Source: Candidatus Omnitrophota bacterium (GTDB lineage Bacteria > Omnitrophota > Gorgyraeia > Zapsychrales > Zapsychraceae). From it: a stretch of 64,000 nt of DNA. The first letter of the stretch is position 1, and each line of letters starts with the position of its first letter. The stretch spans positions 958,361 to 1,022,360 of the forward strand of contig JBFWOS010000001.1 of assembly GCA_050250375.1 (NCBI GenBank), written 5' to 3'. The notes under the pieces were generated by a model, which was not told the origin of the DNA, did no database searches, and saw nothing but the letters and a program-made list of their open reading frames with translations. The translations under genes were made by a program, and so were the position numbers. Of this stretch, positions 8,985 to 46,416 are shown piece after piece.

Positions 8985-8990
8985 CGTTGT

Positions 8991-10555: not shown

Positions 10556-10939
10556 TTAGTTTTCTGACTCATTCGCAGTCTCCTGCATATCTGTTTCTTC
10601 CATACCGGCACCGTCGTCGTCTTCCATCAGCCCCATCTTGTAGATATTTACAGCGACTTTGCCTGCGGTATTAACGATAAAATCGATATAAACTTCATCA
10701 CCGACAGCGATATCTCCCATGGACGCAAAATTTTCCATGAGGGTATTGCCGTCAATCACGAATTGAGCCTCAGTTTCTTCATCAGTATCAGATTCCATGA
10801 TCGTGATGGATGTGGCGGATACACTTTTCACAATCCCTGATGTGTAATCCGGCTCGCCATCTTCCTGGGCCTGGCCGTATCCCGCAAACGCCATCCCTAA
10901 GACACACATCATGGACAACATCATTAATCTCTTAAACAT
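10556..10939 (-). CDS. small secreted acidic protein (paralog family 1)
   Basis: Signal peptide MFKRLMMLSMMCVLGMAFA. Shares the GD-V-V-Y / I-V motif core with 15644..16015 and 53497..53838. Confidence 0.55.
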   Translation of the reverse strand: MFKRLMMLSMMCVLGMAFAGYGQAQEDGEPDYTSGIVKSVSATSITIMESDTDEETEAQFVIDGNTLMENFASMGDIAVGDEVYIDFIVNTAGKVAVNIYKMGLMEDDDGAGMEETDMQETANESEN

Positions 10940-11345
10940 TTAATTCTCCTTGTTAAATTTTATGATTCACTTTTAAAGCTGATCGTAGGTATCGTTTTTT
11001 CCGGTAATACTCCTGTAGGATTGGTTATGAGCAGAAAAAAAACGCATACCAGTTCATAAAGCTACTAAATTTCTTCTGAAATTCAACAACTTAAAAACTA
11101 GAACATGCGTTAAACTTTCTTTCCTCGTCAGACATTAGAATAACTTTGGCCTGAAATCAGTTTTTACCTGATCATTTTCGGGAAGTGCTCCTCCTTTAAA
11201 TTTTTATAAAATAATAATACCTTTTTTTTTCAAATAAACAACTATTTTTTTAAAATATCTTTACATTTTTTCAGTCATTTTCCGGCTGGACGGTGTTTTT
11301 TCCCCAAACGGCCCGGCCTGACAGACCGTCAACCGGAAAACCGGC

Positions 11346-12113: not shown

Positions 12114-12216
12114 TATATCTTTTTTTTATTTAGAACAATGAAATTTTGCAATTATTTAATCGCGGCGGCGAACTCAACCTCGTCGGGAATGACCGGAATC
12201 GCCGGGAAAGAAAGTG

Positions 12217-13608: not shown

Positions 13609-13623
13609 TGATCCTCCTTCATT

Positions 13624-15012
13624 TTAATGGATCCCGAACGCGCGGGGAATGACCAGCTGGTACCCGGCGATGATCAATCCGAACATTATTAACGACACCA
13701 CTATCCCGGCCTTTAACATATCACGGCTGCTCAGCATCTGGGTGGAAAAAGCGATCGTATTGGGCGGGGTCGAAATCGGAAAGGCCATGGCCGCCGAACA
13801 AGACAGGGCAATCATGGTCACCAGAAGGATATGGTTCTCCCCCGGAATCGCGACCGCAACCGGAACGATCAGGTTGGCCGTTGCCGTATTGCTCATAAAC
13901 GTCGACATAAAGAGTGACAAAAACCCGAAGACGGCAATCAGCCAGAACCCCCGGTGTTCAAAGATGGGCTGGGAAACAATCCATTGTGTCAGGCCGCTGA
14001 TCTCGATCCCCTTGCCCAGGGCCAGGCCGCCCCACATCAGGACCAGGATATCCCAGTCGATGGTCTTAAAATCATCCCGGGTCAACAGACCCGTGCCCAC
14101 AAACAATCCCGCGGCCAATAACGCTGTCAGCGCCGAAGGGATTTTATGGATCTCCGACGTCAGCCACAGGATCACCGTGAAAACCGAAATCGCCATCACC
14201 CACCGGGTACGGTCATCCGTTTTTCTCGCCGCGTCCACCGTCAGGTTTATCGTTTTCTTCTTCGGGGGAAACATCAGCGTCAGTGTTACTCCGATGACGG
14301 CCAGCAGTATTAACGCCAGGGGAACGGCCATCTTCATCCAGCCGAAAAAACTCAGGTGAATGCCGTAATTGGCCAGGATACCGATGGCAATCGCGTTAGG
14401 CGGCGTTCCGATCGGGGTGGCAATACCGCCGATGTTCGCGGCAAACGGGATGCACAGGATCAGCGCGGTCCGGAAAGGGTCATCCGCGTCCATCTGCCTG
14501 ACCAGCGGGATGATCATCGTGATCATCATGGCCGTCGTGGCTGTGTTGGACATCCACATCGATAGAAAGGCCGTACAGAGGATAAATCCGCTCATCACAA
14601 AGACCGGATTTGTCCCGAAAAATTTCAGCATGGCGGAAGCGGTTAACTTGTCAATGCCGTATTTCTGCAGGGCCGCCGCCATCACCAGGCCGCCGAAAAA
14701 CAGCATGATGATGGAACTGCCGAACGGAAGCATAAAGACGGAATACCCCATCTCATCCATATTCAGCACGCCTCCGGGCTTGCACAGCAGGAAGGTCAGC
14801 AACAGCACATTAAGAAGCGCGGTGGCATAAAGCGGTATCGCCTCGGTGGCCCAGAATAAACCCGCCAGGACAAACACAAACAGAACGCGCCGGGCCGCTT
14901 CAGGCATGCTTTCCGGAGCAAAGGCATAAGCCAGCCCTGCCGCCGCTACCGCGCAGAAAATTTTTATCCACTTGCGTTTAAAAACATTTTCAAATTGGCG
15001 TTGTTTGTCCAT
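13624..15012 (-). CDS. DASS/SLC13-family anion transporter (ArsB/NhaD permease superfamily)
   Basis: 462 aa, polytopic, with duplicated hairpin motifs (SNTATTAM / SNTATANL). Confidence 0.7.
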   Translation of the reverse strand: MDKQRQFENVFKRKWIKIFCAVAAAGLAYAFAPESMPEAARRVLFVFVLAGLFWATEAIPLYATALLNVLLLTFLLCKPGGVLNMDEMGYSVFMLPFGSSIIMLFFGGLVMAAALQKYGIDKLTASAMLKFFGTNPVFVMSGFILCTAFLSMWMSNTATTAMMITMIIPLVRQMDADDPFRTALILCIPFAANIGGIATPIGTPPNAIAIGILANYGIHLSFFGWMKMAVPLALILLAVIGVTLTLMFPPKKKTINLTVDAARKTDDRTRWVMAISVFTVILWLTSEIHKIPSALTALLAAGLFVGTGLLTRDDFKTIDWDILVLMWGGLALGKGIEISGLTQWIVSQPIFEHRGFWLIAVFGFLSLFMSTFMSNTATANLIVPVAVAIPGENHILLVTMIALSCSAAMAFPISTPPNTIAFSTQMLSSRDMLKAGIVVSLIMFGLIIAGYQLVIPRAFGIH

Positions 15013-15170
15013 GGTAACCGGGTTTCCAAAAAGTGCCTGATTGACGGAAAATAAATATGTTTTATATTAGCTTGTAACGGACGTCCCATCAATCAAAAAG
15101 GCCGCTTTTGAACAGACGATTCAAAACGGACTGGATTCATTTTACCCCGGTAAAAAAAGGAGATTCTACA

Positions 15171-15404
15171 ATGAATAAAAATATTGTTTTCTATGACGGC
15201 GGATGCGGCGACTGCCAGAATGTCGCAAAATTTTTCAGCGCGAATGGGGTTGATTACAACCGGAAGAATATAAAGGCCCATCCGGAACTTGCGGATACAG
15301 CCCGGAAACAGGGGGCGAAAACATTCCCGGCGGTATTTGTGGATGACCTGTTAATCGAAGGGTGGAACGAAAAGCTCCTGCGGCAGGCCCTTGATCTAAA
15401 ATAA
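15171..15404 (+). CDS. glutaredoxin-like protein (NrdH/Grx fold)
   Basis: MNKNIVFYDGGCGDC gives a CxxC right after beta1. RBS AAAGGAG sits 8 nt upstream of ATG 15171. The track ORF 15108 is an over-extended start. Confidence 0.6.
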   Translation: MNKNIVFYDGGCGDCQNVAKFFSANGVDYNRKNIKAHPELADTARKQGAKTFPAVFVDDLLIEGWNEKLLRQALDLK

Positions 15405-15430
15405 ACCAAAAGAAACGGAAAGAATCCACA

Positions 15431-15490
15431 GGGACAGTGTGTTTTGCGGGAGCTAAACTCCCGCTCCCGTAATTCCCTGTCCCTCATTTT
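15431..15490. terminator. nested GC hairpin between convergent genes (bidirectional terminator candidate)
   Basis: GGGACAG..GCGGGAG-ctaaa-CTCCCGC..CTGTCCC followed by TCATTTT. Confidence 0.4.
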
Positions 15491-15643
15491 AAAAATATCT
15501 GCCCACGCCTGCGAGATTATTTTATGGGTGCGGATGGCAGATTTCCCCGTCTTATTTTCATAAGATTTACCCAGATGCTATTTTTCCCGCTCCGTTAGGA
15601 TTCGGCGGCACAACTTGCTGCGGACAACTTAAGCGAAACTGAA

Positions 15644-16015
15644 TTATAAAACGGTTATTGAACTGATAATCTTGTTATCATCTTCATCCGTTGAATATTC
15701 AGCCGATACGTTATCCCCTTCCATAAGATCAGCCGCGGTTACGGCTGCTCCGCCTTTCATAATATTTACTGTTTCAGTAAAATAATAAATGGCGGTTTCG
15801 GTCGTACCGTCTTCTCCTTCAACGCCTGAATCAAGCACGACGTATTGTTCGGCCACATTGACAGAAACGATTGAGCCGGATACGGTCGCGGTTGTTGATT
15901 CTGCGGCGGCTTCCACCATTGCTTCTTCCTCTGATACGGCTAACGTGGGAGAAAGAAACAGGCTGCCGGCAAAAAGAGCTAACAGAATGTTTAATTTAGT
16001 ATTCATTGTAATCAC
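15644..16015 (-). CDS. small secreted protein (paralog family 1)
   Basis: Signal peptide; shares motif ..GD.V...Y with 10556..10939 and 53497..53838. Confidence 0.5.
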   Translation of the reverse strand: MITMNTKLNILLALFAGSLFLSPTLAVSEEEAMVEAAAESTTATVSGSIVSVNVAEQYVVLDSGVEGEDGTTETAIYYFTETVNIMKGGAAVTAADLMEGDNVSAEYSTDEDDNKIISSITVL

Positions 16016-32722: not shown

Positions 32723-33184
32723 TTAGAGCATTACGATTATTCAAAACCCGGATATTATTTTATTACCGTCTGCACCAGAAACCGTAAGGATTGGTTCGGG
32801 GAAATCAGGGACGGGAAAATGATGTTGAATCCGTGCGGGGAAATTGTTTCGCAATGTTGGCATGATTTGCCGGCCCATTATCCCAATTTGCAATTGGATC
32901 AATTCGTTATAATGCCGGACCATATTCACGGGATAATAAATATTAATAAAAATAACGTAGGGAACGGTTTAAAACCGTTCCCTACAAAATTGCACGGATT
33001 ATCCGAATTCGTCCGCGCGTTCAAAACGTTTTCATCTCGCGGAATCAATCATCATTTGAATGGCAACGGCCGTTTCCATTGGCAAAAATCCTTCCACGAC
33101 CACATCATCCGCGACAAACAATCGTTGGAAGAAATCCGGCAATATATCATCAGGAATATTGATGGGGGAAATAAAATAAGATAA
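32723..33184 (+). CDS. IS200/IS605-family HuH Y1 transposase, RAYT-like; no canonical start codon (possible pseudogene or non-ATG start)
   Basis: In-frame translation upstream of the track ORF (32819) reads LEHYDYSKPGYYFITVCTRNRKDWFGEI, the conserved RAYT N-terminus. HuH motif PDHIHGII. Catalytic Tyr in EEIRQYIIRN. The frame is open back to the stop at 32654 with no ATG/GTG/TTG. Confidence 0.55.
   Translation, partial: LEHYDYSKPGYYFITVCTRNRKDWFGEIRDGKMMLNPCGEIVSQCWHDLPAHYPNLQLDQFVIMPDHIHGIININKNNVGNGLKPFPTKLHGLSEFVRAFKTFSSRGINHHLNGNGRFHWQKSFHDHIIRDKQSLEEIRQYIIRNIDGGNKIR
32948..32976. repeat. 29-nt perfect palindrome GTAGGGAACGGTTTAAAACCGTTCCCTAC inside the RAYT coding sequence
   Basis: Shares the AATAACGTAGGGAAC half-site with the REP-like palindromes at 32466 and 34473. 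Confidence 0.6.
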
Positions 33185-33287
33185 AACACCAAAAGAAAAA
33201 TCGGGTTTCATACGGATTGATGAACAGCTTTAAATGAATCAATATTAATCCTGTACGGGCCGTTCGCGAACGGCCCCCTACTTATCT

Positions 33288-33578
33288 TCAAGCGTGTAAC
33301 GCGTCCATAACAATCTTGGGGTTGGCTGCGGCAACCTTTAACAAGGCTAAAGCCGGACCGTCGGGTTTTCTTCGGCCCTGCTCCCAGTTCTGCAATGTGT
33401 CGATGCTGACACCGATCATAAAAGCGAATTCGGACTGGGTGACGTGAAGTTCTTTCCGTATTTTTTTGACCATCACCGGATTAAATTTAAAAATCCGGCC
33501 GGGTTTTAATTTTCCTCTGCGTATTTTGCGGGCCTGGTCAATGCTCGTCAATAATTCTTTAAAATCATGATCTTTCAT
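33288..33578 (-). CDS. XRE-family HTH antitoxin (HigA-like), paralog 2
   Basis: ISIDTLQNWEQGRRKPDGPALALL; roughly 55% identical to 21139..21429. Confidence 0.7.
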   Translation of the reverse strand: MKDHDFKELLTSIDQARKIRRGKLKPGRIFKFNPVMVKKIRKELHVTQSEFAFMIGVSIDTLQNWEQGRRKPDGPALALLKVAAANPKIVMDALHA

Positions 33579-33892
33579 AATGCCCCTCCCTTCACGTATT
33601 CGCCCAAAATCTTCAACTGTTCTATGGTTAAATCTTCTTGTTCTGACTTTTTATACAGGAACAGTAAATAGATCTGCTCATCTTCCAAATACACATAATA
33701 AATGATCCGTATTCCGCCTCTTTTTCCGGCCCCGGGAACGGCCCAACGCAATTTTCTTAATCCCCCGCTTCCCGGAATGACCGGCCCTGCTTGCGGATTG
33801 ACCACCAGCGCCCATTGCAGGTCTTTATACTCATCGTCAGAAAAAACATTGTTTATTCTTTTTGAAAAAACCGGAGTTTCTATAATCTCCAC
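33575..33892 (-). CDS. RelE/ParE-superfamily toxin (HigB/Gp49-like), paralog 2
   Basis: GGLRKLRW...GIRIIYY; 4-nt overlap with the antitoxin gene. Confidence 0.65.
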   Translation of the reverse strand: MEIIETPVFSKRINNVFSDDEYKDLQWALVVNPQAGPVIPGSGGLRKLRWAVPGAGKRGGIRIIYYVYLEDEQIYLLFLYKKSEQEDLTIEQLKILGEYVKGGAL

Positions 33893-35970: not shown

Positions 35971-36495
35971 TTAGAAAGGAAGACCGGCGTTAATAACACC
36001 TGTTAGGTGCCCCTCGCCATCGCTACCATGTGTTTCATGATCAATAGAGGCAATCAATCCCACGACCGCATCACTATCCTGTGCCCATTCAATTCTTACA
36101 TAACCTGAATGATAATCCGACGTGTTGTATTCTATCACCCTAAACCGCGCTGTATCATTTGCGGCAAGAGTGAACGTTACAGAATCTCCGTCTGCCGATC
36201 TTGAATCATCATAATTTGTCAGGGTTGCACCTGTTGCACGCAAGGGGCCGTCCAAGGGATCATCATCTGTGTCTGTTAGAATACTTCCATCTTCATCATA
36301 GATTGTCAGCGTCACATTGATAGAAGAACTGGTAATATTTGTGACAAAAATAATAGGTGCGGATCTTTCCGTTCCGCTGGCCCAATGCCAATAAAGAGGC
36401 GTTCCTACCGCGCTACCGGAAGCCGACGCAGCAGATGCCATACTTGGTGACAGGGTTAATAATCCTACCAGCACTAACAAAACTAATTTCTTCAT
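35971..36495 (-). CDS. secreted protein, paralog family 2 (C-terminal ...GLPF)
   Basis: Signal peptide. Shares ITIYDEDGSILTDTDDD, FTLAAN and IEWAQDSDAVVGL motifs with 48562..49083. Confidence 0.6.
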   Translation of the reverse strand: MKKLVLLVLVGLLTLSPSMASAASASGSAVGTPLYWHWASGTERSAPIIFVTNITSSSINVTLTIYDEDGSILTDTDDDPLDGPLRATGATLTNYDDSRSADGDSVTFTLAANDTARFRVIEYNTSDYHSGYVRIEWAQDSDAVVGLIASIDHETHGSDGEGHLTGVINAGLPF

Positions 36496-37623: not shown

Positions 37624-39825
37624 CTAAAGATTTTCCTGCAACCTTTCAAATTCATATGGAATTAGTCTCGCTTTTTCCGCTAATTTTTCTTTTTTAATTG
37701 CACTTATCACATCGTCTTCTCGTACTTCTGTTGAAAGGTAGCCTGAAAGTTTATCAATAGCGGACTTTGGTACACCATACTCAACCAATATCGCCAAATT
37801 TTGTCTTACAAAATCATTTTCCAATTGTGATGCATAATATGAATAGTTACCAGGGTTCAGACCATTTTTATTACACACATACTTTTGAAGCTCATGTACA
37901 ACATTCAACCATTTTGGAACCTTATAATGAAACCAGTGTCTTAAAATTTGGAAGGAATCCATCACCGCTTCATCATAAATTTCCTGGGGTTTCTTCTCGG
38001 AGTTCTTACTCAACTTGAGATTATATAAATAAGTGTTTTCCACCAACTGAGAAATATTTTGAAACATTGCGTAGTCAAAAGTAACTTTTATTAATTTGGA
38101 TAATGTCATAGGTCTTGTAGTCTCACCTCTTTTTAGAAAATTCTCCCATGCAAGGGTTAACACATAGGTAAGTTGATAATAGTTAGGAAAACCTGACCAT
38201 GAAATTAGATCGTATGAAGTATTAATATCTTTCTTCAAAATCTCAAGAGTTTTACGCTGTCCACTTACAAGAAGACCGTTTTCCCGAATAATTGCCCGTT
38301 CTTCATCAGGGATTTGTAACAATTCGCTGTATTGAGTGCTCTCCTTGTCTCTAACATCCTTTTCCTCGAGATGTATCAGCACCTCATCGTTGATTGGATT
38401 TTGCTCAAAAAATGGAATGTCGATAATAACATCGTTTCTCTCTGGTGGTTGATTGAAGTTGAATATCCTACCAACGTAATGAATCATTAACCTGCCTGAT
38501 CTTCCTTTGATGTTACTATAATCAAAGAAGTCTATTTCGTTAAATCCCTTTTTTGAATCGAAATATACGATGTTTTTTGCACTTGTATTCACTCCTTCAA
38601 TAATAGTTGATGTACAAAACAAATACTTTAGATCTCCCCGATTAAAGTAACTTATAATCGAAGAGGTGATGTGCTTTTGCAAAGCGCCGTCGTGAATCCC
38701 TATCCTATAATCTAAGCAATCCAAAAAACTCCAGTGTCTGCTGACGTTTTCTAGAATCCACTCATAAATGGTCAAATTTCTTCTTTTTACTGGTACACCC
38801 TTATCTTTCAAATATTTCACAAATTTGTAAGAAATCTCGCGAACTCTCTTCGGAGAGGAACAGTAGATAATCGTTTGTTCCTCCTCTAACTCAAGCAACA
38901 AATCAAACAGCACAGTTTCCTTAAATTCTTTGAAGTTTTTTGACTTTGAAAATTCTGTCTCGTGCTTCTGATACACATTTATCGAATGTATGTCCACGAG
39001 TGAATAATCAGTCTTATAAAATTCAGCATTATACTTTTCTGCAAATCCTGCAGAGATACCATCAATATTTGGCCCTAATAGGTAGAATTTGCTTTTGAAT
39101 TTATTGATTAGCCGATTGAAAGCATTGTTGAGCGTGTCGCATCGTTCGTCGTCTCTTTTTGCGCTGAGCTTGTAAAATTCATCAATAATAAAAAAATCAA
39201 TATTAAAAAAATTTGTATATTCCATTACTCTTTCTGCGGTCAGAAGAAACAGATTACCCTTATCAACCGCAGGCGTCTGAGAAGTACGAATAATGATCTT
39301 AAAGTTATCACTATATTTTTTAAGCTTTTTACGAGTCTCATCAAGCAGTGCAAGCGTAGGCTGTATAATAACAATGTTTCGATACTTCTTTGACGCAACA
39401 ATTTCTTCAATAAGTATACTTTTTCCAAAACTAGTTGGTGCACTTACTATGAGATTCTTATCTGACTTTAAAATGTCATTTATGTGCTTCTGTTCATCAT
39501 GGAAATACTTTCCCTTGAGATAGTCAGAACTATGAAACTCCTTTCGTAGCTTTCCCGCAGCGCTTTGCAATTGCATGCGTTCTTTCTCTTTTTCTAAATA
39601 AGGGTAAAAACCTGCTGATTCAATGAGGTCTATCCAAGGTTTTTGACTGGCCGCGTCCAATTTATGCCAATTATCCAAGAGGTTAATGATAATCTGTCTT
39701 CCTTTCTGTGAGTGTGTCTGATTTCTCAATAACCTTGAGCATTTCTGAACATACCTAAAACTATCATAAGGGGATATCTGTTCGTTTCCTACTATCTCAC
39801 TGATTATTTCATCGATTTCATCCAT
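37624..39825 (-). CDS. SF2 DExx-box helicase, candidate Hachiman HamB
   Basis: Walker A SAPTSFGKS and motif II FFIIDEFYKL. 733 aa. Sits immediately downstream of, and 1 nt from, a DUF1837-like gene. Confidence 0.55.
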   Translation of the reverse strand: MDEIDEIISEIVGNEQISPYDSFRYVQKCSRLLRNQTHSQKGRQIIINLLDNWHKLDAASQKPWIDLIESAGFYPYLEKEKERMQLQSAAGKLRKEFHSSDYLKGKYFHDEQKHINDILKSDKNLIVSAPTSFGKSILIEEIVASKKYRNIVIIQPTLALLDETRKKLKKYSDNFKIIIRTSQTPAVDKGNLFLLTAERVMEYTNFFNIDFFIIDEFYKLSAKRDDERCDTLNNAFNRLINKFKSKFYLLGPNIDGISAGFAEKYNAEFYKTDYSLVDIHSINVYQKHETEFSKSKNFKEFKETVLFDLLLELEEEQTIIYCSSPKRVREISYKFVKYLKDKGVPVKRRNLTIYEWILENVSRHWSFLDCLDYRIGIHDGALQKHITSSIISYFNRGDLKYLFCTSTIIEGVNTSAKNIVYFDSKKGFNEIDFFDYSNIKGRSGRLMIHYVGRIFNFNQPPERNDVIIDIPFFEQNPINDEVLIHLEEKDVRDKESTQYSELLQIPDEERAIIRENGLLVSGQRKTLEILKKDINTSYDLISWSGFPNYYQLTYVLTLAWENFLKRGETTRPMTLSKLIKVTFDYAMFQNISQLVENTYLYNLKLSKNSEKKPQEIYDEAVMDSFQILRHWFHYKVPKWLNVVHELQKYVCNKNGLNPGNYSYYASQLENDFVRQNLAILVEYGVPKSAIDKLSGYLSTEVREDDVISAIKKEKLAEKARLIPYEFERLQENL

Positions 39826-39826
39826 C

Positions 39827-40765
39827 TTAAATTTTTTGTATATAACTCAATTTTTCGTGTAATTTCTTCAACAAAACGTTCTTATTCGGCACAGGGAATA
39901 AGAGCAGTATAATTCGCAAATCCGTCTTTATCGGACTACTTCTGTGGTCATCAAAATACTTCTTTAAAGCACGCATTTCATTTTCATATTCGCATACAAA
40001 TTCAGCCGTCTTTTCAGAATTATGCTTGTTAAACACTTCGCTAGTATATGTGCACAACAAGGGGATAGTCACAGATTCAAGAATATTCTCTAAGGTATTG
40101 TCCACATCAATCAGATCAAACCACCTGTCTTTGTCTGGAATCACACTCGAATCAGCATAAAAATTACGTTTCTTGGAGATAAGCGCAAATTCTCTAAGCA
40201 AATAATCCCTCTCAAAGTGTTTCATTATATCCTGTGTAAGCTCCTTGACTCCACTGCTACCACTTGCGTGCAATTTTGACTCGCCAAGCCATAAAGATTT
40301 ACTTGGTGCGTGAATATGCACAGCATCAAAACCATGAACAGTGATTCCATCGGCATCTTTGAAAAAAACTTTTGATAACAGACAAATGGTATTGTGGAAA
40401 TCTCTAAGAAGAAGATGCAGAATCAATTCACCAAACTCTCCCCGCCGGCCATATTTTTTTTCAAAGAAATCATCCTCATCTCGATACTTCTTATGTTCAT
40501 GATTAGTAGAATCGTACGGATCAATTTTGTATATCGCCTTAGCTGCTTCCTTTAACTTTTCTCTATTGTATGTATTGGTTAAAATGCCGTCATGATAACC
40601 AAAAGCAAAATCAACTAAAGCATTCAGAAGCTTACCAATCAGCGGGTCCCATCTATACTCTCCAAGATCGAATCCCACAAAATAAGTTTTCAAGTCTGCC
40701 TCGGAGATGTGCTGAGTAATAACTGTTTCTGATCCGAATGGGGTCTTTATTTCTGATTTTGGCAT
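39827..40765 (-). CDS. candidate Hachiman HamA (DUF1837-like, PD-(D/E)xK)
   Basis: 312 aa. Putative nuclease motif GFDAVHIH...GESKLH (D...ExK). Upstream and adjacent to the helicase in the Hachiman gene order. Confidence 0.4.
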   Translation of the reverse strand: MPKSEIKTPFGSETVITQHISEADLKTYFVGFDLGEYRWDPLIGKLLNALVDFAFGYHDGILTNTYNREKLKEAAKAIYKIDPYDSTNHEHKKYRDEDDFFEKKYGRRGEFGELILHLLLRDFHNTICLLSKVFFKDADGITVHGFDAVHIHAPSKSLWLGESKLHASGSSGVKELTQDIMKHFERDYLLREFALISKKRNFYADSSVIPDKDRWFDLIDVDNTLENILESVTIPLLCTYTSEVFNKHNSEKTAEFVCEYENEMRALKKYFDDHRSSPIKTDLRIILLLFPVPNKNVLLKKLHEKLSYIQKI

Positions 40766-40880: not shown

Positions 40881-41621
40881 TTACGATTTTCTTATAAGAT
40901 TAGCTACAATTTCCTTTTTAACTTCTCCAAAACGCCCTTTACTTGTTTGTTCACAAGCTGCTCCTCTAATACAAATTACATCCACTCCTGTTCTCCAAAG
41001 GTCGGGTAATTCCTCTTTAGCTATTGACCCAGCAATCCAAGCTTCTTTCTTTATTTCATGACAAGAAGAAACAAAAGCAGCCACTTGTTTGAGATTCCAA
41101 TAATCTAATAATCCTTTTCCAAGTAATTTATTAAATGTATCAATTAAGAGACCGTCTGCTTGAATTTTCTTTATCAATTTCGGACCCTCTTTAAGTGGAT
41201 TAAAGAATCTTTGCATGTCAGGATCAACAAATACAGCAGGAATGACTTTTTTATGTGGATACAGCATCTTTACACTACGAACAAGAGAGTCACCAAGATA
41301 AGCTGCCGCTTCAAATGGAAGCTCGGCTAAGCCACACTTAATAATATCTGCTCCTGCCGTTGCGACCCCAAGTGCAGCCTGACACGAAGAAGCACGGACG
41401 TGTTGAACTTCACCGATATTTGTTGAAACAATGGCCCTCTTGAATCCAGCTTTATCTAATTGATTTCGTACAGCAAGAATATTTAACGGATATGGCGTTC
41501 CAAGAGCAGAAGCAGGGTATTCAACATCAGCTATATGCGCTCCACCCCTGACAGCCTCCAAGGCTTCTTTTGGTCCACGTACGCTAATGAGCAATTTTTG
41601 TTTTATAAAGGCTTTGCGCAT
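40881..41621 (-). CDS. MfnB-family protein ((5-formylfuran-3-yl)methyl phosphate synthase-like, DUF556 TIM barrel)
   Basis: Aligns along its full length to archaeal MfnB: LLISVRGPKEALEAVRGGAHIADVEYP, IIKCGL, GLLIDTFNK...AWIAGSIAKEELPDLWRTGVDVICIRGAACE. Confidence 0.6.
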   Translation of the reverse strand: MRKAFIKQKLLISVRGPKEALEAVRGGAHIADVEYPASALGTPYPLNILAVRNQLDKAGFKRAIVSTNIGEVQHVRASSCQAALGVATAGADIIKCGLAELPFEAAAYLGDSLVRSVKMLYPHKKVIPAVFVDPDMQRFFNPLKEGPKLIKKIQADGLLIDTFNKLLGKGLLDYWNLKQVAAFVSSCHEIKKEAWIAGSIAKEELPDLWRTGVDVICIRGAACEQTSKGRFGEVKKEIVANLIRKS

Positions 41622-42091
41622 ACTCTCTCCCTCAAATAAAAATACTGTTTTACTTCAGGCATGAACCCTGCCACATGTCTTGCGATTTGTTCTTTCCACT
41701 CAGAACTTTTTCCATTGTATGTACGTATTCTTAATCCAGATCCAGTCACCATTTCAGAAAGTTTAAATCTTGATTTAGTGTTATACAGAGCGAGAATTGG
41801 CTTTCCCTTCATAATCGCATAAGTTAACTCTTGCCCCACACCCCAAGAGACAACTGAAATTTCTGCAACAAGGAAATCGGCTTTATCAACTTCAGCTAAA
41901 TCTCGCATATATATTTCATTCGCTTTTATCAATGAATCTTCCTTTATAGGATGAAAAATGTTAACTTTATGGTTCTTTTTTAAACACTTTTCAATGTGTT
42001 CATAAAATTTGAGATATTCATCTACTTCTTCTTGATCAAATTGTCTTAATAAAGTTATAGCTTGAGATAAATAACAATTTAATTTCTTCAT
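41603..42091 (-). CDS. nucleoside 2-deoxyribosyltransferase-like (NDT/SLOG fold) protein
   Basis: IFHPIKED...DLAEVDKADFLVAEISVVSWGVGQELTYAIMKGKPILAL resembles PF05014-type proteins. Overlaps the downstream MfnB-like gene by 19 nt. Confidence 0.45.
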   Translation of the reverse strand: MKKLNCYLSQAITLLRQFDQEEVDEYLKFYEHIEKCLKKNHKVNIFHPIKEDSLIKANEIYMRDLAEVDKADFLVAEISVVSWGVGQELTYAIMKGKPILALYNTKSRFKLSEMVTGSGLRIRTYNGKSSEWKEQIARHVAGFMPEVKQYFYLRERVCAKPL

Positions 42092-42103
42092 AAACTTGTC
42101 CTT

Positions 42104-43468
42104 TTAAATGAGTTCTTTAAATTTCTTTTCCAATAAATCATCCACTTGTCCATTGTCGTTAGTGATTTTCGCGTTTAAAATCTTTTCTATATCAGCATCT
42201 GTAAGCACAATAACAAATTTACTGTCTTTTGCTAAAACTAGCTGTCTTTGTTTAACCTTCTGCACATCCACAATTGATCTACAGACGATTATGCCAAATT
42301 GTCCTCTCCTATTATTAAGCCTATTATGTATTTGTGAAAATTCTTCGTTTGCAATATCTTTGTTATAATTCTTACATTCAATGAAAATATTCGGACAAAC
42401 AATCTTATAACCCTCATCTAACTGTTTAAAAAATCCATTTTTTCTGTAATTCTTGAAAGTTATGTCAACACGTTGTATTTTTTCATCCCAACAATCTTCT
42501 TTCTCAGGACTGCTAAGAGTTTCATAAAAAACATCCTTTAGAATGGTAAATATTAAATTATGATACCGAGAGGCTTGTTTTTTAGCTTTTCCAGGCAAAA
42601 TATTTTTTAATTCTTTTAAATACTGATTCGTAATATCGATAGGCTTAGGTTTGGTAGTTCTTGTTGGAACTTTTGTTTCATATTCTTCTCTTGTTGCAGA
42701 TTTTCTCGTTATTTTTTGTAATACTTCTTTATGTTTTAATTGCTTATGTATATCTAAACTGTTCTCAACAAGTATTGGGCCAGACGGCCTAAACACATAC
42801 GCCTGGTTATTTCCTGACTTTGAAAATTTAAATGTATTGTCAAACGTAAATCCATATGCATTTAACATATCATGGATATCTTTCCTCGAGAAATCTCTAT
42901 AAAACATTTTATAATTTCTGCCTTTCCCCGTCGCAATCCCATCAGACACTCTTACTGAATTTCTATCGCTAGAATAAGCTCCGTGTTGTGTATACCAAAG
43001 CAGTCTCCCATCATCTTTAATTTTTTCTCTAAATATTTTTAAAACTGCATGCCTTTCTACAGGAACAGGCATAATATTTAATACATTAATACAAAGTATA
43101 ACGTCAAATTCTTTCTGTGCTGTTATAAAATCTTTAGGGAAGATAAGCGATTTGAAATTTCCAAATTTATTTGCTTTTTCTAAATATTCGGCAGCTTGAG
43201 TTGATCTTTTAAATAAATCTTCATAATCACAGGCATAAACTGTGTACCCATCTTTTAGTAAATGTAATGTGTTTCTCAATTTAGCCGCACCAAAATCTAA
43301 TATCGTTGTATTTTTAGAATTAAGGCCGGCTAAAAGTGAGCCAAAGGCATACTCTAATTGCCTCCCCGGTTCGCTAAAATTAGGAGCTGAGCCAGTAACA
43401 TCAATAAGAATAGGTATACTCTGACCTTTTTCAATAGCATTAAACTTATATATTGGTGTTTCCCACAT
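42104..43468 (-). CDS. class I SAM-dependent methyltransferase fused to a C-terminal PD-(D/E)xK-like domain
   Basis: Motif I ILDFGAAKLRNT. Acidic residue at the end of beta2 (VYACDY). Motif IV-like DVILCINVLN. C-terminal RVDITF...IFIECKNY gives a D...ExK pattern. Confidence 0.45.
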   Translation of the reverse strand: MWETPIYKFNAIEKGQSIPILIDVTGSAPNFSEPGRQLEYAFGSLLAGLNSKNTTILDFGAAKLRNTLHLLKDGYTVYACDYEDLFKRSTQAAEYLEKANKFGNFKSLIFPKDFITAQKEFDVILCINVLNIMPVPVERHAVLKIFREKIKDDGRLLWYTQHGAYSSDRNSVRVSDGIATGKGRNYKMFYRDFSRKDIHDMLNAYGFTFDNTFKFSKSGNNQAYVFRPSGPILVENSLDIHKQLKHKEVLQKITRKSATREEYETKVPTRTTKPKPIDITNQYLKELKNILPGKAKKQASRYHNLIFTILKDVFYETLSSPEKEDCWDEKIQRVDITFKNYRKNGFFKQLDEGYKIVCPNIFIECKNYNKDIANEEFSQIHNRLNNRRGQFGIIVCRSIVDVQKVKQRQLVLAKDSKFVIVLTDADIEKILNAKITNDNGQVDDLLEKKFKELI

Positions 43469-43551
43469 TTTATCTGCCTTTCTTAGACATTCTTACACCA
43501 AATTCCTAAATGAAAGAATCTGCGTTACGTTCTTTTACATACCAAGAACTA

Positions 43552-45201
43552 CTAACTTAGTACGTTCTTCCTCACTTTTTTAGATTTCTTTTCTTTAAGC
43601 TTAACGACTCTATCTATATCGATTTTTTGTAAATAAACTTTAAATCTATACAAACTAAGACGTAGATATATATTTTTCAATGAAACTTTACTAAAGAATG
43701 GAATTTTCAGCTTGTCGGGAACACTACTAATAATTCCATAAATAATTTTATATTCTTCCGCATTTATCTGTTTATTAGAATCTTTAATTTGGAACTTCCT
43801 CGGAAGTCGTTTATTCATTTCTAAACGATACGCTGGATCCGCCAAGAATAATTCGGCTGAAACAATGCCCTGATTAAAGAGATGACTCAAAATATTAGAA
43901 CCCCCATAATGTTTAATATGAATAAAATCTTTTTTACTTGAATATAAATCGCATATCTCAACAGGGGAACTGTATAAATAGACATTTTTTTTATCCAATA
44001 GTGCGTATCCGGATTTCTCTGCAGCATATTCATTATAGTGGTCCTCTACCACCGGCTCTTCTGGCTCTTCAAATCTTACAGGACACCCTGGTAATTTAAT
44101 AGGACTCTTAGCTCTTAATAACTTTTCATATGTTTTTTCAATTTGAGCTGAAAAACTTTTATCGATTTTGTACCATTTCCCATTCGTTAAAGTGTAAACA
44201 CTATTTTTCTCAGATATTTCTGCATATAAACAGTTATAAATTTTCCATAACCTTGTTGGTGAGTTTTCAAAATAACAATATATATGCAGTTTTCTAAGTA
44301 ATTCGATGGTAAATGTTCCCTCGTGTTTTTCATATTCCTTAACGAAATCGGTTAAAGATAAATCTCTATACTCTCCTCCCATTTGACTCGTTTTGTATTT
44401 AAAATAATCAAAATCTGTCCAATCAATAATTTCAGGCACAGCTATCCATAATTTATCAAAATTCTTATCATTAATTTTCCGAACCAAACTGTTATTGAAT
44501 CGCTCAATATCTGTAGGGTTTCGGACCTCTTCAATTTGGTCGATCCAAGAAAAATATTTTTTATAGGATCTCGAATTACTATATTCCAAACACCTCAATA
44601 AAAACTTTTTAATATTTACAAATGTGACGGGTACAGAAACATGTAAAGAATCTCTACCAGAAATTGTTTTGCCAAGAAATAAATCATTCGAAAGACCCGT
44701 GACGGCTTGAATTAAATCTTGTTCAATATTTATACCAAACTCTGATGTTGTTGCACTTTTCCCCACTTGCTCCTTTGATTGTTTTACCAAACCACCAAAA
44801 TTAATCTTATCAATGCTTCTAATATTCTCTTGATCTACAGCATTTAGAACAACCTTCAATCCGAAACGTTCTTCATACACTCCTTTTTGCAAAAGATGAA
44901 AACCCGTTCCAAATGTTAGCGCAAAATAACGCAATGATGTTTTTCTTAACTTGACTGGAACAATTAGCGCAGCACAAGATGAGGACGAAAAAATTTTCGT
45001 TTGATCTGTTATGGAATCACCAAAAAATTTTTCTATCCAGCTTGGTCGTCTCGATGCCGATGGTTTAATGTAAAATATGGAATCACTGATATTTTTCTTA
45101 ATGAGACCTGAGTCATTATCAATGATTTCATCTAAAAAAATATTATCTTTAATAAGATATATCGATAATTTATTTTTCTTTTCTCTTGGTATCTTTTTCA
45201 T
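43552..45201 (-). CDS. hypothetical 549-aa protein, first gene of the four-gene cassette
   Basis: No confident family. Lys-rich C-terminal tail. Low-GC codon usage matches the 37.6-45.2 kb block. Confidence 0.45.
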   Translation of the reverse strand: MKKIPREKKNKLSIYLIKDNIFLDEIIDNDSGLIKKNISDSIFYIKPSASRRPSWIEKFFGDSITDQTKIFSSSSCAALIVPVKLRKTSLRYFALTFGTGFHLLQKGVYEERFGLKVVLNAVDQENIRSIDKINFGGLVKQSKEQVGKSATTSEFGINIEQDLIQAVTGLSNDLFLGKTISGRDSLHVSVPVTFVNIKKFLLRCLEYSNSRSYKKYFSWIDQIEEVRNPTDIERFNNSLVRKINDKNFDKLWIAVPEIIDWTDFDYFKYKTSQMGGEYRDLSLTDFVKEYEKHEGTFTIELLRKLHIYCYFENSPTRLWKIYNCLYAEISEKNSVYTLTNGKWYKIDKSFSAQIEKTYEKLLRAKSPIKLPGCPVRFEEPEEPVVEDHYNEYAAEKSGYALLDKKNVYLYSSPVEICDLYSSKKDFIHIKHYGGSNILSHLFNQGIVSAELFLADPAYRLEMNKRLPRKFQIKDSNKQINAEEYKIIYGIISSVPDKLKIPFFSKVSLKNIYLRLSLYRFKVYLQKIDIDRVVKLKEKKSKKVRKNVLS

Positions 45202-45324: not shown

Positions 45325-46416
45325 TCAAACCCTTTCAGCATAACCTTTTTCTAAAAGCAAATTATTCAAATAAACATCCGTCCCCGCATCCGGACTTTCC
45401 CCCTGCGGGATGAAGATGTCCGCGAGGTAGCGGTCGTATTTGTCGGACTTGTTGGTGCGGATGATGACGCGGTCGGCTTCTTTGATCAGAGACTGCACGA
45501 AGGTCTTGGCGGCCGCGCCTTCTTTGGTGTCCATTTCCGGGCAGTCGATCCCGCGCAGGCGCAGGGTCTGCCGGGTCCACATGTTAAAACCCTGGTCCAC
45601 GCGCACTTTGAGCGTGTCGCCGTCGATGACCCGTTCCACGTACGCCTGATAGGTAAAGAGGTCTTTGGGCGTTCGGGCCCCTGTGTAAAATTTATAATCG
45701 CCATCGGCGCCGCGCGACTCGATGATCTGCCCCCCGCTAAATTTAGAAAGCAGTTTGTCCTCCACTTTATGGAAATTGCTGAAACCCACATCGATCATCA
45801 GTTCAGGTTCGGCAGCGGAGGCCACCGCCGGGCGTTTGGTGATCTGATAAGTGTACAGGGTTCCGCGGGCCGGGATGAGAGGCGTTTGTACAGGCGGCAA
45901 TTCCTTTTTAACGTCCACCTTCTGCGGTTTGTCTTTACCCGCCCTGATCTGCGACAAAAGCTCATCCGTCGACCATTGATGCCGGGCCGCGCGTTCTTCC
46001 AACCGGCCGCGCTCATCGGGATCAGAGACAGCCATCAGTTCACGGTAATGGGTCCAGGTGAATTGCGACCGCGCGGTCGCAATTGGCGCGCGGCTGTAAG
46101 TCCTGGAAAATTGGACGCAGCGTTCCAGCAGACGGGAATTAAGCCCCAAATCATCGGCCAGCCGTTTGATCACCTGCGCCCCGTAATCGGCGCGGCTTTT
46201 ACTCTGTTTAATATGTGTCTGGATAATATTCCCGGTTTCCCAATACGTGCGCACGCGTTCGGCCTCGATGCGGGCCTGGCCTTCCAGGAGAGTCTTCTTC
46301 ACCTGTTTGAGGAGCGGCTGATAAACAGACGCCGGGATGGTGATCGTTTTGGGCGGTTTGCTTGTCATGAGCGTATCATCGCTGTCGGTTTCATGATTTA
46401 TCTGGATTATAAGCAT
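45325..46416 (-). CDS. YhcG-N (DUF1016 N-terminal) domain fused to a staphylococcal-nuclease (SNase)-like domain
   Basis: N-terminal RVRTYWETGNIIQTHIKQSKSRADYGAQVIKRLADDL and FSRTY..FTWTHYRELM are YhcG-N-like. C-terminal VIDGDTLKVRV...LRLRGIDCPE...YDRYLADIF is an SNase signature. Likely starts at the internal MTSKPP Met (around 46368). Confidence 0.5.
   Translation of the reverse strand: MLIIQINHETDSDDTLMTSKPPKTITIPASVYQPLLKQVKKTLLEGQARIEAERVRTYWETGNIIQTHIKQSKSRADYGAQVIKRLADDLGLNSRLLERCVQFSRTYSRAPIATARSQFTWTHYRELMAVSDPDERGRLEERAARHQWSTDELLSQIRAGKDKPQKVDVKKELPPVQTPLIPARGTLYTYQITKRPAVASAAEPELMIDVGFSNFHKVEDKLLSKFSGGQIIESRGADGDYKFYTGARTPKDLFTYQAYVERVIDGDTLKVRVDQGFNMWTRQTLRLRGIDCPEMDTKEGAAAKTFVQSLIKEADRVIIRTNKSDKYDRYLADIFIPQGESPDAGTDVYLNNLLLEKGYAERV

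What the first reader, a model, noticed from the sequence alone, without database searches (positions are those of the whole stretch)
40881..45201. Unexplained four-gene cassette (549-aa unknown, MTase::PD-(D/E)xK fusion, NDT/SLOG-like, MfnB-family aldolase) next to a Hachiman-like pair: candidate novel defence or nucleotide-modification system
Four tightly packed co-directional genes; the last two overlap by 19 nt. The MfnB family (4-HFC-P synthase, DUF556) is otherwise known from methanofuran biosynthesis, yet no other mfn genes are present here. It is paired with a nucleoside-2-deoxyribosyltransferase/SLOG-fold protein, a methyltransferase fused to a restriction-endonuclease-like domain, and a large unknown. 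The block is AT-richer than its flanks. It is surrounded by a Hachiman-like pair, a nuclease fusion and a lipase. I know of no described defence system with this composition.
Basis: partly seen in the sequence, partly recalled or inferred. Interest (0 to 1): 0.8.

Follow-up and report, generated by a model that had tools for sequence, protein, structure and literature searches.

The report
Nucleotide-cleaving enzyme pair in defence island
Four tightly packed genes in a bacterial anti-virus gene island are three separable modules; the core is an unstudied, never-separated enzyme pair (a nucleotide-splitting enzyme plus an altered sugar-phosphate enzyme) that recurs beside many known anti-phage systems.

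Summary
Four co-directional minus-strand genes lie at 40881-45201 in a low-GC island of a Candidatus Omnitrophota MAG, directly upstream of a bona fide Hachiman pair.

The four genes are not one conserved four-gene system. About 65 related loci gave no second copy of the full set.
- **Conserved core:** the last two genes. A DNPH1/Rcl-type nucleotide N-glycosidase ("NDT-like") always has the MfnB-fold gene directly downstream, usually overlapping by 19 nt.
- **Not a true MfnB:** the MfnB-fold protein belongs to a distinct clade in which the Schiff-base Lys27 is invariably Glu. It scores 121 bits against a 341-bit equivalog cut-off.
- **A promiscuous clade:** it is attached to many defence operons (CBASS, Septu-like, Hachiman, HerA, Gabija, TIR-nuclease).
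- **Facultative neighbours:** DUF6119 is a predicted RdgC-like + PD-(D/E)xK nuclease that otherwise stands alone or sits in type I R-M operons. It and the MTase::PD-(D/E)xK fusion recur next to the pair but are not obligatory.

None of DUF6119, NDT-like or MfnB-like is in PADLOC v2, and I found no literature on them in defence.

My best reading, which is inferred and not shown, is a nucleotide-pool-destroying defence module that acts alongside nucleases.

The parts
43552..45201 (-). DUF6119/TIGR04141 protein (549 aa). Predicted RdgC-like N-terminal region plus a C-terminal PD-(D/E)xK-type nuclease fold. A facultative neighbour of the core pair.
42104..43468 (-). Fusion protein (454 aa). Class-I SAM methyltransferase domain at about 42821-43333 and PD-(D/E)xK restriction-endonuclease-like domain at about 42113-42646.
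   Evidence: Methyltransf_23/12/25 hits. The C-terminus hits PADLOC PDC-M36A (E 4.8e-14) and mREase_II (E 3e-6). Invariant D335, E364 and K366 are shared with four homologues and with a TIR fusion in L032. The same gene lies directly upstream of the NDT-MfnB pair in L043, L047, L053 and L060.
41603..42091 (-). DNPH1/Rcl-type (deoxy)nucleotide N-glycosidase, 'NDT-like' (162 aa). First gene of the obligate pair.
   Evidence: PF05014, 32.2 bits against a cut-off of 28.8. The family profile hits rat Rcl/DNPH1 at E 1.5e-13, and the single sequence hits at E 2.3e-9. D64, S82, E88 and S112 align to Rcl D69, S87, E93 and S117 and are invariant. Amino-acid identity is 93-95% while third-codon-position identity is only 54-60%.
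40881..41621 (-). MfnB-fold TIM-barrel protein of the 'Glu clade' (246 aa). Second gene of the pair and the hub gene shared by many defence operons.
   Evidence: PF04476 E 5.9e-39. MJ1099 (PDB 4rc1) E 4.3e-27, with Lys27 aligned to Glu34. D-x-E in all 58 clade members examined, against D-x-K in 70 of 83 family representatives. NCBIfam MfnB equivalog score 121 against a cut-off of 341.
41603..41621 (-). 19-nt overlap between the NDT-like stop and the MfnB-like start, which suggests translational coupling.
   Evidence: Coordinates. The same 19-nt overlap is seen in L006, L023, L025 and L043.
37624..40765 (-). Context: bona fide Hachiman (HamA 39827-40765, HamB 37624-39825), 115 nt downstream of the pair.
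   Evidence: PADLOC HamA E 8.5e-105 and HamB E 1.2e-230. A different Hachiman subtype lies directly upstream of an NDT-MfnB pair in L049.
45325..46416 (-). Context: DUF1016_N + staphylococcal-nuclease fusion (PADLOC candidate PDC-S02), upstream of the cassette.

Best explanation
The cassette is a head-to-tail assembly of three separable defence-island modules, placed in front of a Hachiman system.

1. **DUF6119** is a predicted DNA-binding (RdgC-like) PD-(D/E)xK nuclease. Elsewhere it stands alone or sits inside type I R-M operons.
2. **A SAM-methyltransferase::PD-(D/E)xK nuclease fusion.**
3. **The conserved core**, a translationally coupled enzyme pair:
   - a DNPH1/Rcl-type N-glycosidase that retains the catalytic Asp/Glu and both phosphate-binding serines;
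   - an MfnB-fold TIM barrel that keeps D25/K85/D151/K155-equivalent residues but has Glu in place of the Schiff-base Lys27. It is therefore not a 4-HFC-P synthase.

Proposed mechanism (inferred, not shown). The N-glycosidase splits (deoxy)nucleoside monophosphates into free base plus (deoxy)ribose-5-phosphate. The substrates may be phage-specific ones such as 5-hydroxymethyl-dUMP, which is the DNPH1 substrate. The DERA-related MfnB-like enzyme then converts the sugar phosphate irreversibly. The net effect would be to remove nucleotides that a phage needs. That set would include the dNMPs released by the neighbouring nucleases (DUF6119, the REase fusion, HamA), so the pair would reinforce nuclease-based defence.

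The Glu-clade MfnB-like gene is the shared hub. It is attached to many different defence operons, and the NDT-like gene is one of several alternative partners.
For: **Modularity**
- NDT-like is followed by MfnB-like in every locus with enough sequence, about 27 non-redundant loci.
- The pair is flanked by opposite-strand genes in L061, and by an opposite-strand gene immediately downstream in L057.
- DUF6119 homologues occur without the pair: next to type I R-M, solitary or near an N6_Mtase/Eco57I-type gene, and between hsdS and hsdR with 4-nt overlaps.
- MTase::REase is present in only 5 of 27 pair loci, and DUF6119 in 9 of 27.

**Enzymology**
- DNPH1/Rcl similarity at E 1.5e-13, with D64, S82, E88 and S112 aligned and invariant.
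- MJ1099 similarity at E 4.3e-27, with K27 replaced by E34.
- Lys27 is the Schiff-base residue of MfnB, and MfnB shares its Lys/Asp active-site set with DERA.
- The Glu is clade-wide.

**Defence context.** Immediate neighbours of the clade include:
- CBASS Cap5/CD-NTase/E2, Septu PtuA/PtuB, Shedu, NACHT and a TIR-nuclease fusion;
- HerA and Hachiman;
- Gabija.

The window island also holds Hachiman, PDC-S02, PDC-S13 and a RelE/HTH pair.

**Absence from viral contigs.** Scans for the NDT-like and MfnB-like genes found nothing.

**Purifying selection.** It is very strong on the NDT-like gene.

**Precedents for NDT-fold nucleotide-depleting effectors.** Retron Ec86 and the hypothesised Thoeris type VIII ThsI.
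Against: - No experiment and no direct computational test links any of these genes to phage resistance. The defence role rests on gene neighbourhood only.
- The substrate of either enzyme is unknown.
- Most Glu-clade MfnB-like genes (about 39 of 43 species-representative loci) lack the NDT-like partner. A model in which MfnB-like merely consumes the NDT-like product cannot be its general role.
- Loss of the Schiff-base lysine could mean different chemistry, or even a non-catalytic role.
- MTase::REase and DUF6119 recur beside the pair far more often than chance. Sometimes they are translationally coupled to MfnB-like (L009, L019, L032). That argues for more functional integration than 'independent modules'.
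- The sampled loci are nearly all MAGs and metagenome contigs.
Confidence: 0.45

Rival explanations
1. One integrated three- or four-gene system of restriction-modification type. NDT-like, MfnB-like and the methyltransferase domain would make or install a non-canonical base or nucleotide modification, or a small-molecule cofactor. The two PD-(D/E)xK nucleases (the REase domain and DUF6119) would then discriminate and cut unmodified or modified invader DNA.
For: - The gaps are 83 nt, 12 nt and -19 nt, with no convincing internal promoter or terminator.
- MTase::REase sits directly upstream of the pair at gaps of 5-55 nt in L043, L047, L053 and L060.
- DUF6119-NDT-MfnB or NDT-MfnB-DUF6119 occurs in L006, L025, L048, L050, L055, L056, L059 and L079.
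- The REase domain is fused to TIR and overlaps MfnB-like by 4 nt in L032.
- The methyltransferase domain is of the small-molecule type (TehB/CmoM-like), not a DNA-MTase family.
Against: - The full set was never found again.
- Gene order and composition vary.
- The pair occurs alone (L061, L057).
- DUF6119 mostly occurs without the pair.
- NDT-family enzymes act on free nucleosides and nucleotides, not on DNA (established knowledge of DNPH1/NDT).
- No DNA-methyltransferase family hit.
Confidence: 0.2
2. The Glu-clade MfnB-like enzyme is itself the general effector or signal generator, shared by many defence systems. On activation it would convert a central sugar phosphate (GA3P, R5P or dR5P) into a toxic or signalling aldehyde, furan or methylglyoxal-type product. 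NDT-like, DUF6119, CBASS, Septu and the others would be alternative sensors or substrate suppliers.
For: - MfnB-like is the only component common to all 65 loci. It is operonic, with gaps from -4 to about 20 nt, with very different partners: CBASS E2, HerA, DUF6119, TIR-REase, PtuA and c7.
- It is highly conserved across more than 10 phyla, at 50-77% identity.
- Canonical MfnB chemistry includes phosphate elimination and aldehyde formation.
- About 14 loci combine it with a decarboxylase (AdoMetDC-like or PLP-dependent, mutually exclusive) and DUF3326. DUF3326 is implicated in polyamine biosynthesis. This combination suggests small-molecule synthesis.
Against: - No fusions of the MfnB-like domain to sensor domains were seen.
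- The partners share no common ligand-binding domain.
- The Schiff-base lysine needed for the known chemistry is absent.
- The idea is purely inferential.
Confidence: 0.2
3. Not defence. The pair would be an accessory nucleotide or sugar-phosphate salvage or detoxification pathway, analogous to eukaryotic DNPH1 -> DERA. It would hitch-hike in variable genomic islands, and the other two genes would be unrelated neighbours.
For: - Conservation of both enzymes is extremely high, which is atypical for fast-evolving immune genes.
- DNPH1 is a nucleotide-pool sanitiser in eukaryotes (PDB names).
- There is no PADLOC hit.
Against: - The distribution is sporadic across phyla and the neighbours differ between loci.
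- No conserved metabolic neighbourhood was seen among the neighbours examined.
- Immediate neighbours are repeatedly known defence genes, often with overlapping or nearly abutting reading frames.
- The window copy lies in a low-GC island with Hachiman and toxin-antitoxin genes.
Confidence: 0.1

Closest known systems
MfnB / 4-HFC-P synthase (MJ1099, PF04476, PDB 4rc1)
   Same: Same TIM-barrel family (E 4.3e-27). The equivalents of D25, K85, D151 and K155 are conserved as D32, K95, D161 and K165.
   Different: - The Schiff-base Lys27 is Glu in the whole clade.
- It scores 121 bits against the 341-bit equivalog cut-off.
- No mfn pathway genes lie nearby.
- It is found in defence islands of non-methanogens. 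It also occurs as a copy next to Gabija in a Methanoregula MAG.
DNPH1 / Rcl (2'-deoxynucleoside 5'-phosphate N-hydrolase; 5-hydroxymethyl-dUMP N-hydrolase)
   Same: Best solved relative (E 1.5e-13). The catalytic Asp and Glu and both phosphate-binding Ser are aligned and invariant.
   Different: - It is bacterial, and always coupled to an MfnB-fold gene.
- The equivalence of the N-terminal Tyr lies outside the aligned region.
- Substrate and activity are untested.
NDT-fold effectors of known defence systems: retron Ec86/Eco1 effector and Thoeris type VIII ThsI (CMP-hydrolase domain)
   Same: N-glycosidase fold of the NDT family, used or proposed to deplete nucleotides during phage infection.
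   Different: - No reverse transcriptase/msDNA or TIR partner is present here.
- The protein is a minimal 162-aa single domain.
- Its obligate partner is a TIM-barrel enzyme that is not present in those systems.
Nucleotide-pool-depleting defence enzymes (dCTP deaminase, dGTPase, ATP nucleosidase Cap17/Detocs). From my own knowledge and from the review cited.
   Same: The proposed logic is the same: starve the phage of DNA precursors.
   Different: - The enzyme families are different.
- Here the target would be monophosphates, with a second enzyme removing the sugar phosphate.
- There is no experimental support.
PADLOC candidate PDC-M36A and Mrr-like / type IV restriction nucleases
   Same: The C-terminal PD-(D/E)xK domain of the 454-aa protein matches PDC-M36A (E 4.8e-14) and mREase_II (E 3e-6).
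   Different: - The N-terminal half is a small-molecule-type SAM methyltransferase that is not covered by the PDC-M36A match.
- No DNA-MTase family hit.
Genes embedded in type I R-M operons (e.g. PrrC, from my own knowledge), as an analogue for DUF6119
   Same: DUF6119 lies between hsdS and hsdR with 4-nt overlaps on Mameliella alba pKUB257. It lies next to type I R-M in several metagenome loci.
   Different: - DUF6119 is a predicted PD-(D/E)xK DNA nuclease, not an anticodon nuclease.
- In the window there is no type I R-M next to it.

Membership tests
MfnB (4-HFC-P synthase) | Matches the PF04476 family model above the gathering score | tested here: met
   134.6 bits against a cut-off of 22.4.
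MfnB (4-HFC-P synthase) | Reaches the NCBIfam equivalog cut-off for (5-formylfuran-3-yl)methyl phosphate synthase | tested here: not met
   121.2 bits against a cut-off of 341 (NF002573), and 115.1 against 304 (NF002575).
MfnB (4-HFC-P synthase) | Schiff-base-forming Lys27 | tested here: not met
   Lys27 of MJ1099 aligns to Glu34. D-x-E in all 58 clade members. D-x-K in 70 of 83 family representatives. The role of Lys27 is taken from PMC6604932.
MfnB (4-HFC-P synthase) | Other essential active-site residues (Asp25, Lys85, Asp151; Lys155) | tested here: met
   D32, K95, D161 and K165 are invariant in alignment A1.
MfnB (4-HFC-P synthase) | Genomic association with other methanofuran or methylofuran biosynthesis genes | tested here: not met
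   None within about 10 kb in the window, and none among the neighbours that were family-scanned or clustered in about 65 loci.
MfnB (4-HFC-P synthase) | Converts two GA3P to 4-HFC-P | not testable with these tools
   Needs an enzyme assay.
DNPH1/Rcl-type nucleotide N-glycosidase (NDT superfamily, PF05014) | Family model match | tested here: met
   PF05014, 32.2 bits against a cut-off of 28.8. The profile hits Rcl/DNPH1 at E 1.5e-13.
DNPH1/Rcl-type nucleotide N-glycosidase (NDT superfamily, PF05014) | Catalytic Glu nucleophile and Asp (Rcl E93, D69) | tested here: met
   E88 and D64 are aligned and invariant in 18 sequences.
DNPH1/Rcl-type nucleotide N-glycosidase (NDT superfamily, PF05014) | 5'-phosphate-binding serines (Rcl S87, S117), which distinguish nucleotide hydrolases from nucleoside transferases | tested here: met
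   S82 and S112 are aligned and invariant. The residue roles come from my own knowledge of Rcl structures.
DNPH1/Rcl-type nucleotide N-glycosidase (NDT superfamily, PF05014) | N-terminal catalytic Tyr (Rcl Y13) | tested here: inconclusive
   An invariant Y7 exists in a C-Y-[LF]-S motif, but it lies outside the HMM-aligned region.
DNPH1/Rcl-type nucleotide N-glycosidase (NDT superfamily, PF05014) | N-glycosidase activity on dNMP or hm-dUMP | not testable with these tools
   Needs an enzyme assay.
Restriction-modification (MTase + REase) enzyme | PD-(D/E)xK catalytic motif | tested here: met
   D335 and E364-C-K366 are invariant in 5 sequences. PADLOC mREase_II and PDC-M36A hits.
Restriction-modification (MTase + REase) enzyme | DNA methyltransferase domain (N6_Mtase, N6_N4_Mtase, DNA_methylase or similar families) | tested here: not met
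   Only generic or small-molecule MTase families hit (Methyltransf_23/12/25, CheR; TehB/CmoM-like). No PDB sequence relative.
DUF6119 / TIGR04141 | Full-length family model match | tested here: met
   Pfam residues 12-527 against profile positions 1-523 of 524, E 2.7e-133. TIGR04141 scores 449 bits against a cut-off of 35.
Any system in PADLOC-DB v2.0.0 | The four proteins match models of one described or candidate system | tested here: not met
   DUF6119, NDT-like and MfnB-like match 0 families. Only the REase domain hits PDC-M36A.
Hachiman (neighbouring system) | Adjacent HamA (DUF1837) and HamB (helicase) | tested here: met
   HamA E 8.5e-105 and HamB E 1.2e-230, with overlapping genes at 39825-39827.
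CBASS accessory module | CD-NTase and effector present in the same locus | tested here: not met
   No Cap5, CD-NTase or E2 homologue in the window by tblastn. CBASS is adjacent to the MfnB-like gene in about 10 other loci.

The most novel reading that the evidence does not exclude
The Glu-clade MfnB-fold protein is a previously unrecognised, widely transferred immune enzyme, and the first aldolase-type TIM barrel in prokaryotic immunity. It would plug into many unrelated defence systems: CBASS, Septu-like, Hachiman, HerA systems, DUF6119, TIR-nuclease. It would make or destroy a sugar-phosphate-derived small molecule. With the DNPH1-like partner it would form a two-step pathway that eliminates (possibly phage-modified) deoxynucleotides. 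DUF6119 would be a further new nuclease-type defence gene.
Probability: 0.3. Interest if true: 0.85.

Novelty: new variant of a known kind. Interest (0 to 1): 0.65.

Why it matters
If the pair is a defence module, it adds a new enzyme chemistry to bacterial immunity: an MfnB/DERA-like TIM barrel with an altered active site.

It would also give a concrete and testable link between nuclease-based systems and destruction of the nucleotide pool. That link includes possible targeting of phage-specific modified nucleotides such as hm-dUMP.

The work also yields several leads that need no further screening to follow up:
- a family name and a fold-based prediction (RdgC-like + PD-(D/E)xK nuclease) for the 'sporadically distributed' TIGR04141/DUF6119 proteins;
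- a conserved Septu-like operon with a decarboxylase, DUF6119-independent DUF3326 and the MfnB-like gene;
- a correction for database annotation. Current records name these proteins '(5-formylfuran-3-yl)methyl phosphate synthase', which the missing Schiff-base lysine makes very unlikely.

Tried and rejected
- **Literature.** Searches for DUF6119, TIGR04141, DUF556/UPF0264/PF04476, MfnB + anti-phage and DUF3326 found nothing on a defence role. The 'DUF556' text hits were matches to other names.
- **Viral contigs (IMG/VR).** No MfnB-like or NDT-like relatives were found, and only one DUF6119 relative. A phage-encoded DNA-modification reading is therefore not supported.
- **Plasmid collection.** Only canonical Lys-type MfnB relatives at about 30% identity. 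This was uninformative for the Glu clade.
- **Is the 393-aa 'c7' partner a hidden NDT-fold protein?** It has a motif resembling S-x-G-x-x-x-E-L-G. hhalign, hmmsearch and a PDB profile search were all non-significant, so I dropped the idea.
- **Pooled PADLOC scan of 108 immediate neighbours.** The output was dominated by redundant ATPase models and gave no usable overall count.
- **Promoter and terminator scan of the cassette.** There were fewer promoter-like sites than in shuffled sequence, so it was uninformative.
- **PDB sequence search with the MTase::REase protein.** No meaningful hit.
- **Methyltransferases near the Methanoregula copy (L085).** They are not detectably related to the window's MTase domain.
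- **Recent horizontal transfer as the reason for 93-95% NDT-like identity.** Rejected. DNA identity is only about 70-79% and third codon positions are 54-60% identical, so the similarity reflects selection and not recency.

Full report
**1. What is in the sequence**

The interval 40881-45201 holds four minus-strand ORFs:
- 43552-45201 (549 aa)
- 42104-43468 (454 aa)
- 41603-42091 (162 aa)
- 40881-41621 (246 aa)

The gaps between them are 83 nt and 12 nt, and the last two overlap by 19 nt. GC is 0.30-0.39 across 41-45 kb, against about 0.5 in the flanks.

Exact-sequence hits place the window on a 1.23-Mb contig of a Candidatus Omnitrophota MAG.

The surrounding genes mark a defence island:
- an IS200-like fragment
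- a RelE/HTH pair
- a Bro-N protein (PADLOC PDC-S13)
- bona fide Hachiman (HamA E 8.5e-105, HamB E 1.2e-230)
- the cassette itself
- a DUF1016_N-SNase fusion (PDC-S02)
- a class-3 lipase

The island is bracketed by a TonB-dependent receptor on one side and outer-membrane genes on the other.

**2. The four proteins**

*549 aa.* This is a full-length DUF6119/TIGR04141 member (E about 1e-133).
- An AlphaFold2 model built from 38 homologues has pLDDT 87.
- Invariant E415, D418, H428 and K430 lie in the C-terminal beta-strands.

*454 aa.* This is a fusion of two domains.
- The N-terminal domain is a generic, small-molecule-type SAM methyltransferase.
- The C-terminal domain is PD-(D/E)xK-type, with invariant D335 and E364-x-K366. 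It matches PADLOC PDC-M36A and mREase_II.

*162 aa.* This passes the PF05014 threshold.
- As a family profile it finds rat Rcl/DNPH1 as its best solved relative, E 1.5e-13.
- The catalytic Asp and Glu and both 5'-phosphate-binding serines are aligned and invariant.

*246 aa.* This is a PF04476 member, E 4.3e-27 to MJ1099.
- It scores far below the MfnB equivalog cut-offs, 121 bits against 341.
- The Schiff-base Lys27 of MfnB (PMC6604932) aligns to Glu34.

**3. The MfnB-fold protein belongs to a distinct clade**

Glu occupies that position in all 58 relatives recovered from loci. In an exhaustive search of 1.84 billion cluster representatives, 70 of 83 full-length family representatives carry the canonical D-x-K. 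The sequences closest to the window carry D-x-E. The other active-site residues (D32, K95, D161, K165) are retained.

The database name '(5-formylfuran-3-yl)methyl phosphate synthase' is therefore most likely wrong for this clade.

**4. Co-conservation**

A scan of one genome per species found 44 loci with the MfnB-like gene in more than 10 phyla, nearly all MAGs. A metagenome scan seeded with the NDT-like protein added 26 loci, and look-ups added more. After de-duplication there are 65 loci.

Findings:

- (a) The NDT-like gene is always immediately followed by the MfnB-like gene wherever sequence extends far enough, usually with the same 19-nt overlap. The pair is flanked by opposite-strand genes in L061, and by an opposite-strand gene immediately downstream in L057.
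- (b) The converse does not hold. Only 4 of 43 species-representative loci have the NDT-like partner.
- (c) MTase::REase lies directly upstream of the pair in L043, L047, L053 and L060. Its nuclease domain, fused to TIR instead, overlaps MfnB-like in L032.
- (d) DUF6119 is adjacent to MfnB-like in 12 of 65 loci. In L009 and L019 it overlaps MfnB-like by 4 nt with no NDT-like gene present.
- (e) The exact four-gene set of the window was not seen again.

**5. DUF6119 on its own**

The contexts of DUF6119 homologues were as follows:
- Close homologues lie next to type I R-M systems without any MfnB-like gene.
- Others are solitary, or lie near an N6_Mtase/Eco57I-type gene or among integrases.
- In cultured bacteria the family occurs on conjugative plasmids.
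- On Mameliella alba pKUB257 it sits between hsdS and hsdR with 4-nt overlaps.
- On a Rhizobium plasmid it stands alone.

I conclude that DUF6119 is an autonomous nuclease-type gene that is associated with defence islands, and that it frequently, but not necessarily, joins the MfnB-like gene.

**6. The company the MfnB-like clade keeps**

Immediate neighbours, often with overlapping or nearly abutting reading frames, include the following:
- CBASS Cap5 (HNH-SAVED), CD-NTase and E2, in about 10 loci. In L004 the E2 gene ends 5 nt before MfnB-like.
- A Septu-like PtuA/PtuB pair together with DUF3326 and either an AdoMetDC-like or a PLP-dependent decarboxylase. The two decarboxylases are mutually exclusive. 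This set occurs in about 14 loci.
- HerA (E 3e-192) and a second Hachiman subtype directly upstream of an NDT-MfnB pair in L049.
- Gabija.
- Shedu, NACHT, a subtilase, DUF3732, DUF6602 and a second NDT-like family.
- A conserved 393-aa unknown, 'c7'. It partners the MfnB-like genes most similar to the window's.

Neither MfnB-like nor NDT-like was found in IMG/VR viral contigs.

This pattern is what one expects of a gene that belongs to defence operons. It is not what one expects of a housekeeping gene. It remains guilt by association.

**7. Selection**

NDT-like proteins are 93-95% identical to the window's. First and second codon positions are 90-98% identical, while third positions are only 54-60% identical. 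DNA identity is about 70-79%. The similarity therefore reflects very strong purifying selection and not recent transfer.

The window's MfnB-like clusters with the c7-partnered lineage (70-77% identity). It does not cluster with the lineage usually found behind NDT-like (55-60% identity). This indicates that the two halves of the pair have been re-assorted.

**8. Mechanism**

*Shown:* the folds, the catalytic-residue status and the gene linkage.

*Inferred:*
- The NDT-like enzyme would cleave (deoxy)nucleoside monophosphates to base plus (deoxy)ribose-5-phosphate, as DNPH1 does with hm-dUMP (names of solved structures).
- The MfnB/DERA-related TIM barrel would then act on the sugar phosphate. 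The shared Lys/Asp active site is described in PMC6604932.
- In a defence island full of nucleases, the net effect would be to remove nucleotides a phage could use. That includes dNMPs released by nucleases and possibly phage-specific modified nucleotides.

NDT-fold nucleotide-depleting effectors have precedents in retron Ec86 and the proposed Thoeris type VIII effector ThsI.

*Weak points:*
- Most MfnB-like genes have no NDT-like partner, so the general role of the hub enzyme is unexplained.
- Loss of Lys27 leaves the chemistry of the MfnB-like enzyme open.

*Rivals:*
- an integrated R-M-like system
- MfnB-like as a shared effector or signal generator
- a non-defence salvage pathway

**9. Verdict**

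The region is a credible, undescribed defence-associated gene set, but it is a mosaic of three modules around an obligate two-gene core, not one four-gene system.
- The 'MfnB' label is misleading.
- Nothing comparable was found in PADLOC v2 or in the searched literature.
- I rate it a new variant of a known kind (nucleotide-targeting defence enzymes beside nucleases). There is a meaningful chance that the MfnB-like hub represents something more novel.

Noticed in passing
L007, L010, L012, L020, L021, L024, L037 (same strand); L001-L003, L027, L038, L040 (divergent): A recurrent gene set: MfnB-like + Septu-like PtuA/PtuB + DUF3326 + one decarboxylase. The decarboxylase is either AdoMetDC-like or PLP-dependent (Orn/DAP/Arg-type), never both. 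It looks like a Septu variant coupled to small-molecule (polyamine-like?) synthesis. DUF3326 is implicated in pavettamine biosynthesis in a 2026 preprint.
   Followed up: partly
L084 (Mameliella alba plasmid pKUB257) 5986-7659; also L071-L075, L079: DUF6119 is embedded between hsdS and hsdR of a type I R-M operon with 4-nt overlaps, and lies next to type I R-M in several metagenome contigs. The AF2 model suggests an RdgC-like domain plus a PD-(D/E)xK nuclease.
   Followed up: partly
L001 8768-9949, L002 5036-6220, L038 8805-9989, L086 6800-7990 (also L003, L022): A conserved 393-aa protein ('c7', 70-76% identity between phyla) lies directly upstream of the MfnB-like genes most similar to the window's. 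It has no Pfam, PADLOC or PDB sequence match. A motif resembling the NDT catalytic loop was not supported by hhalign or hmmsearch.
   Followed up: partly
L049 2319-6972: A different Hachiman subtype (HamA E 9e-92, HamB E 7.5e-253) is followed within about 10 nt by an NDT-MfnB pair. In the window the order is reversed, with the pair first and Hachiman after. This is the second independent Hachiman adjacency.
   Followed up: partly
L032 6316-8609: A TIR domain is fused to the same PD-(D/E)xK domain as in the window's MTase fusion, and overlaps the MfnB-like gene by 4 nt.
   Followed up: partly
L063 7685-9874 and L081 7857-9932: Homologous 690-730-aa proteins (DUF8371 in the precomputed Pfam hits, no PADLOC hit) lie directly upstream of divergent NDT-MfnB pairs. 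This is another recurrent three-gene arrangement.
   Followed up: no
window 35971-36495 and 48562-49083: Two paralogous small ORFs (43% identity). At least the first begins with a signal-peptide-like hydrophobic stretch. They bracket the low-GC defence island, so the island may have been inserted between tandem paralogues.
   Followed up: no
window 32819-33892: An IS200-like transposase fragment (32819-33184) and a RelE-like/HTH (MqsA-like) toxin-antitoxin pair (33288-33892) lie at the edge of the island.
   Followed up: no
L085 (Methanoregula MAG) 5170-15909: A methanogen carries a Glu-clade MfnB-like gene. It sits beside Gabija (OLD-family GajA + UvrD-type helicase) and two small-molecule-type methyltransferases, not in a methanofuran context.
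   Followed up: partly
L079 5932-7289: Between a type I R-M system and DUF6119-NDT-MfnB lie an AGOG-like (faint hit) protein and a DUF6884 protein. A faint HhH-GPD glycosylase-like gene lies downstream. This hints at base-excision-type enzymes in the same island.
   Followed up: no
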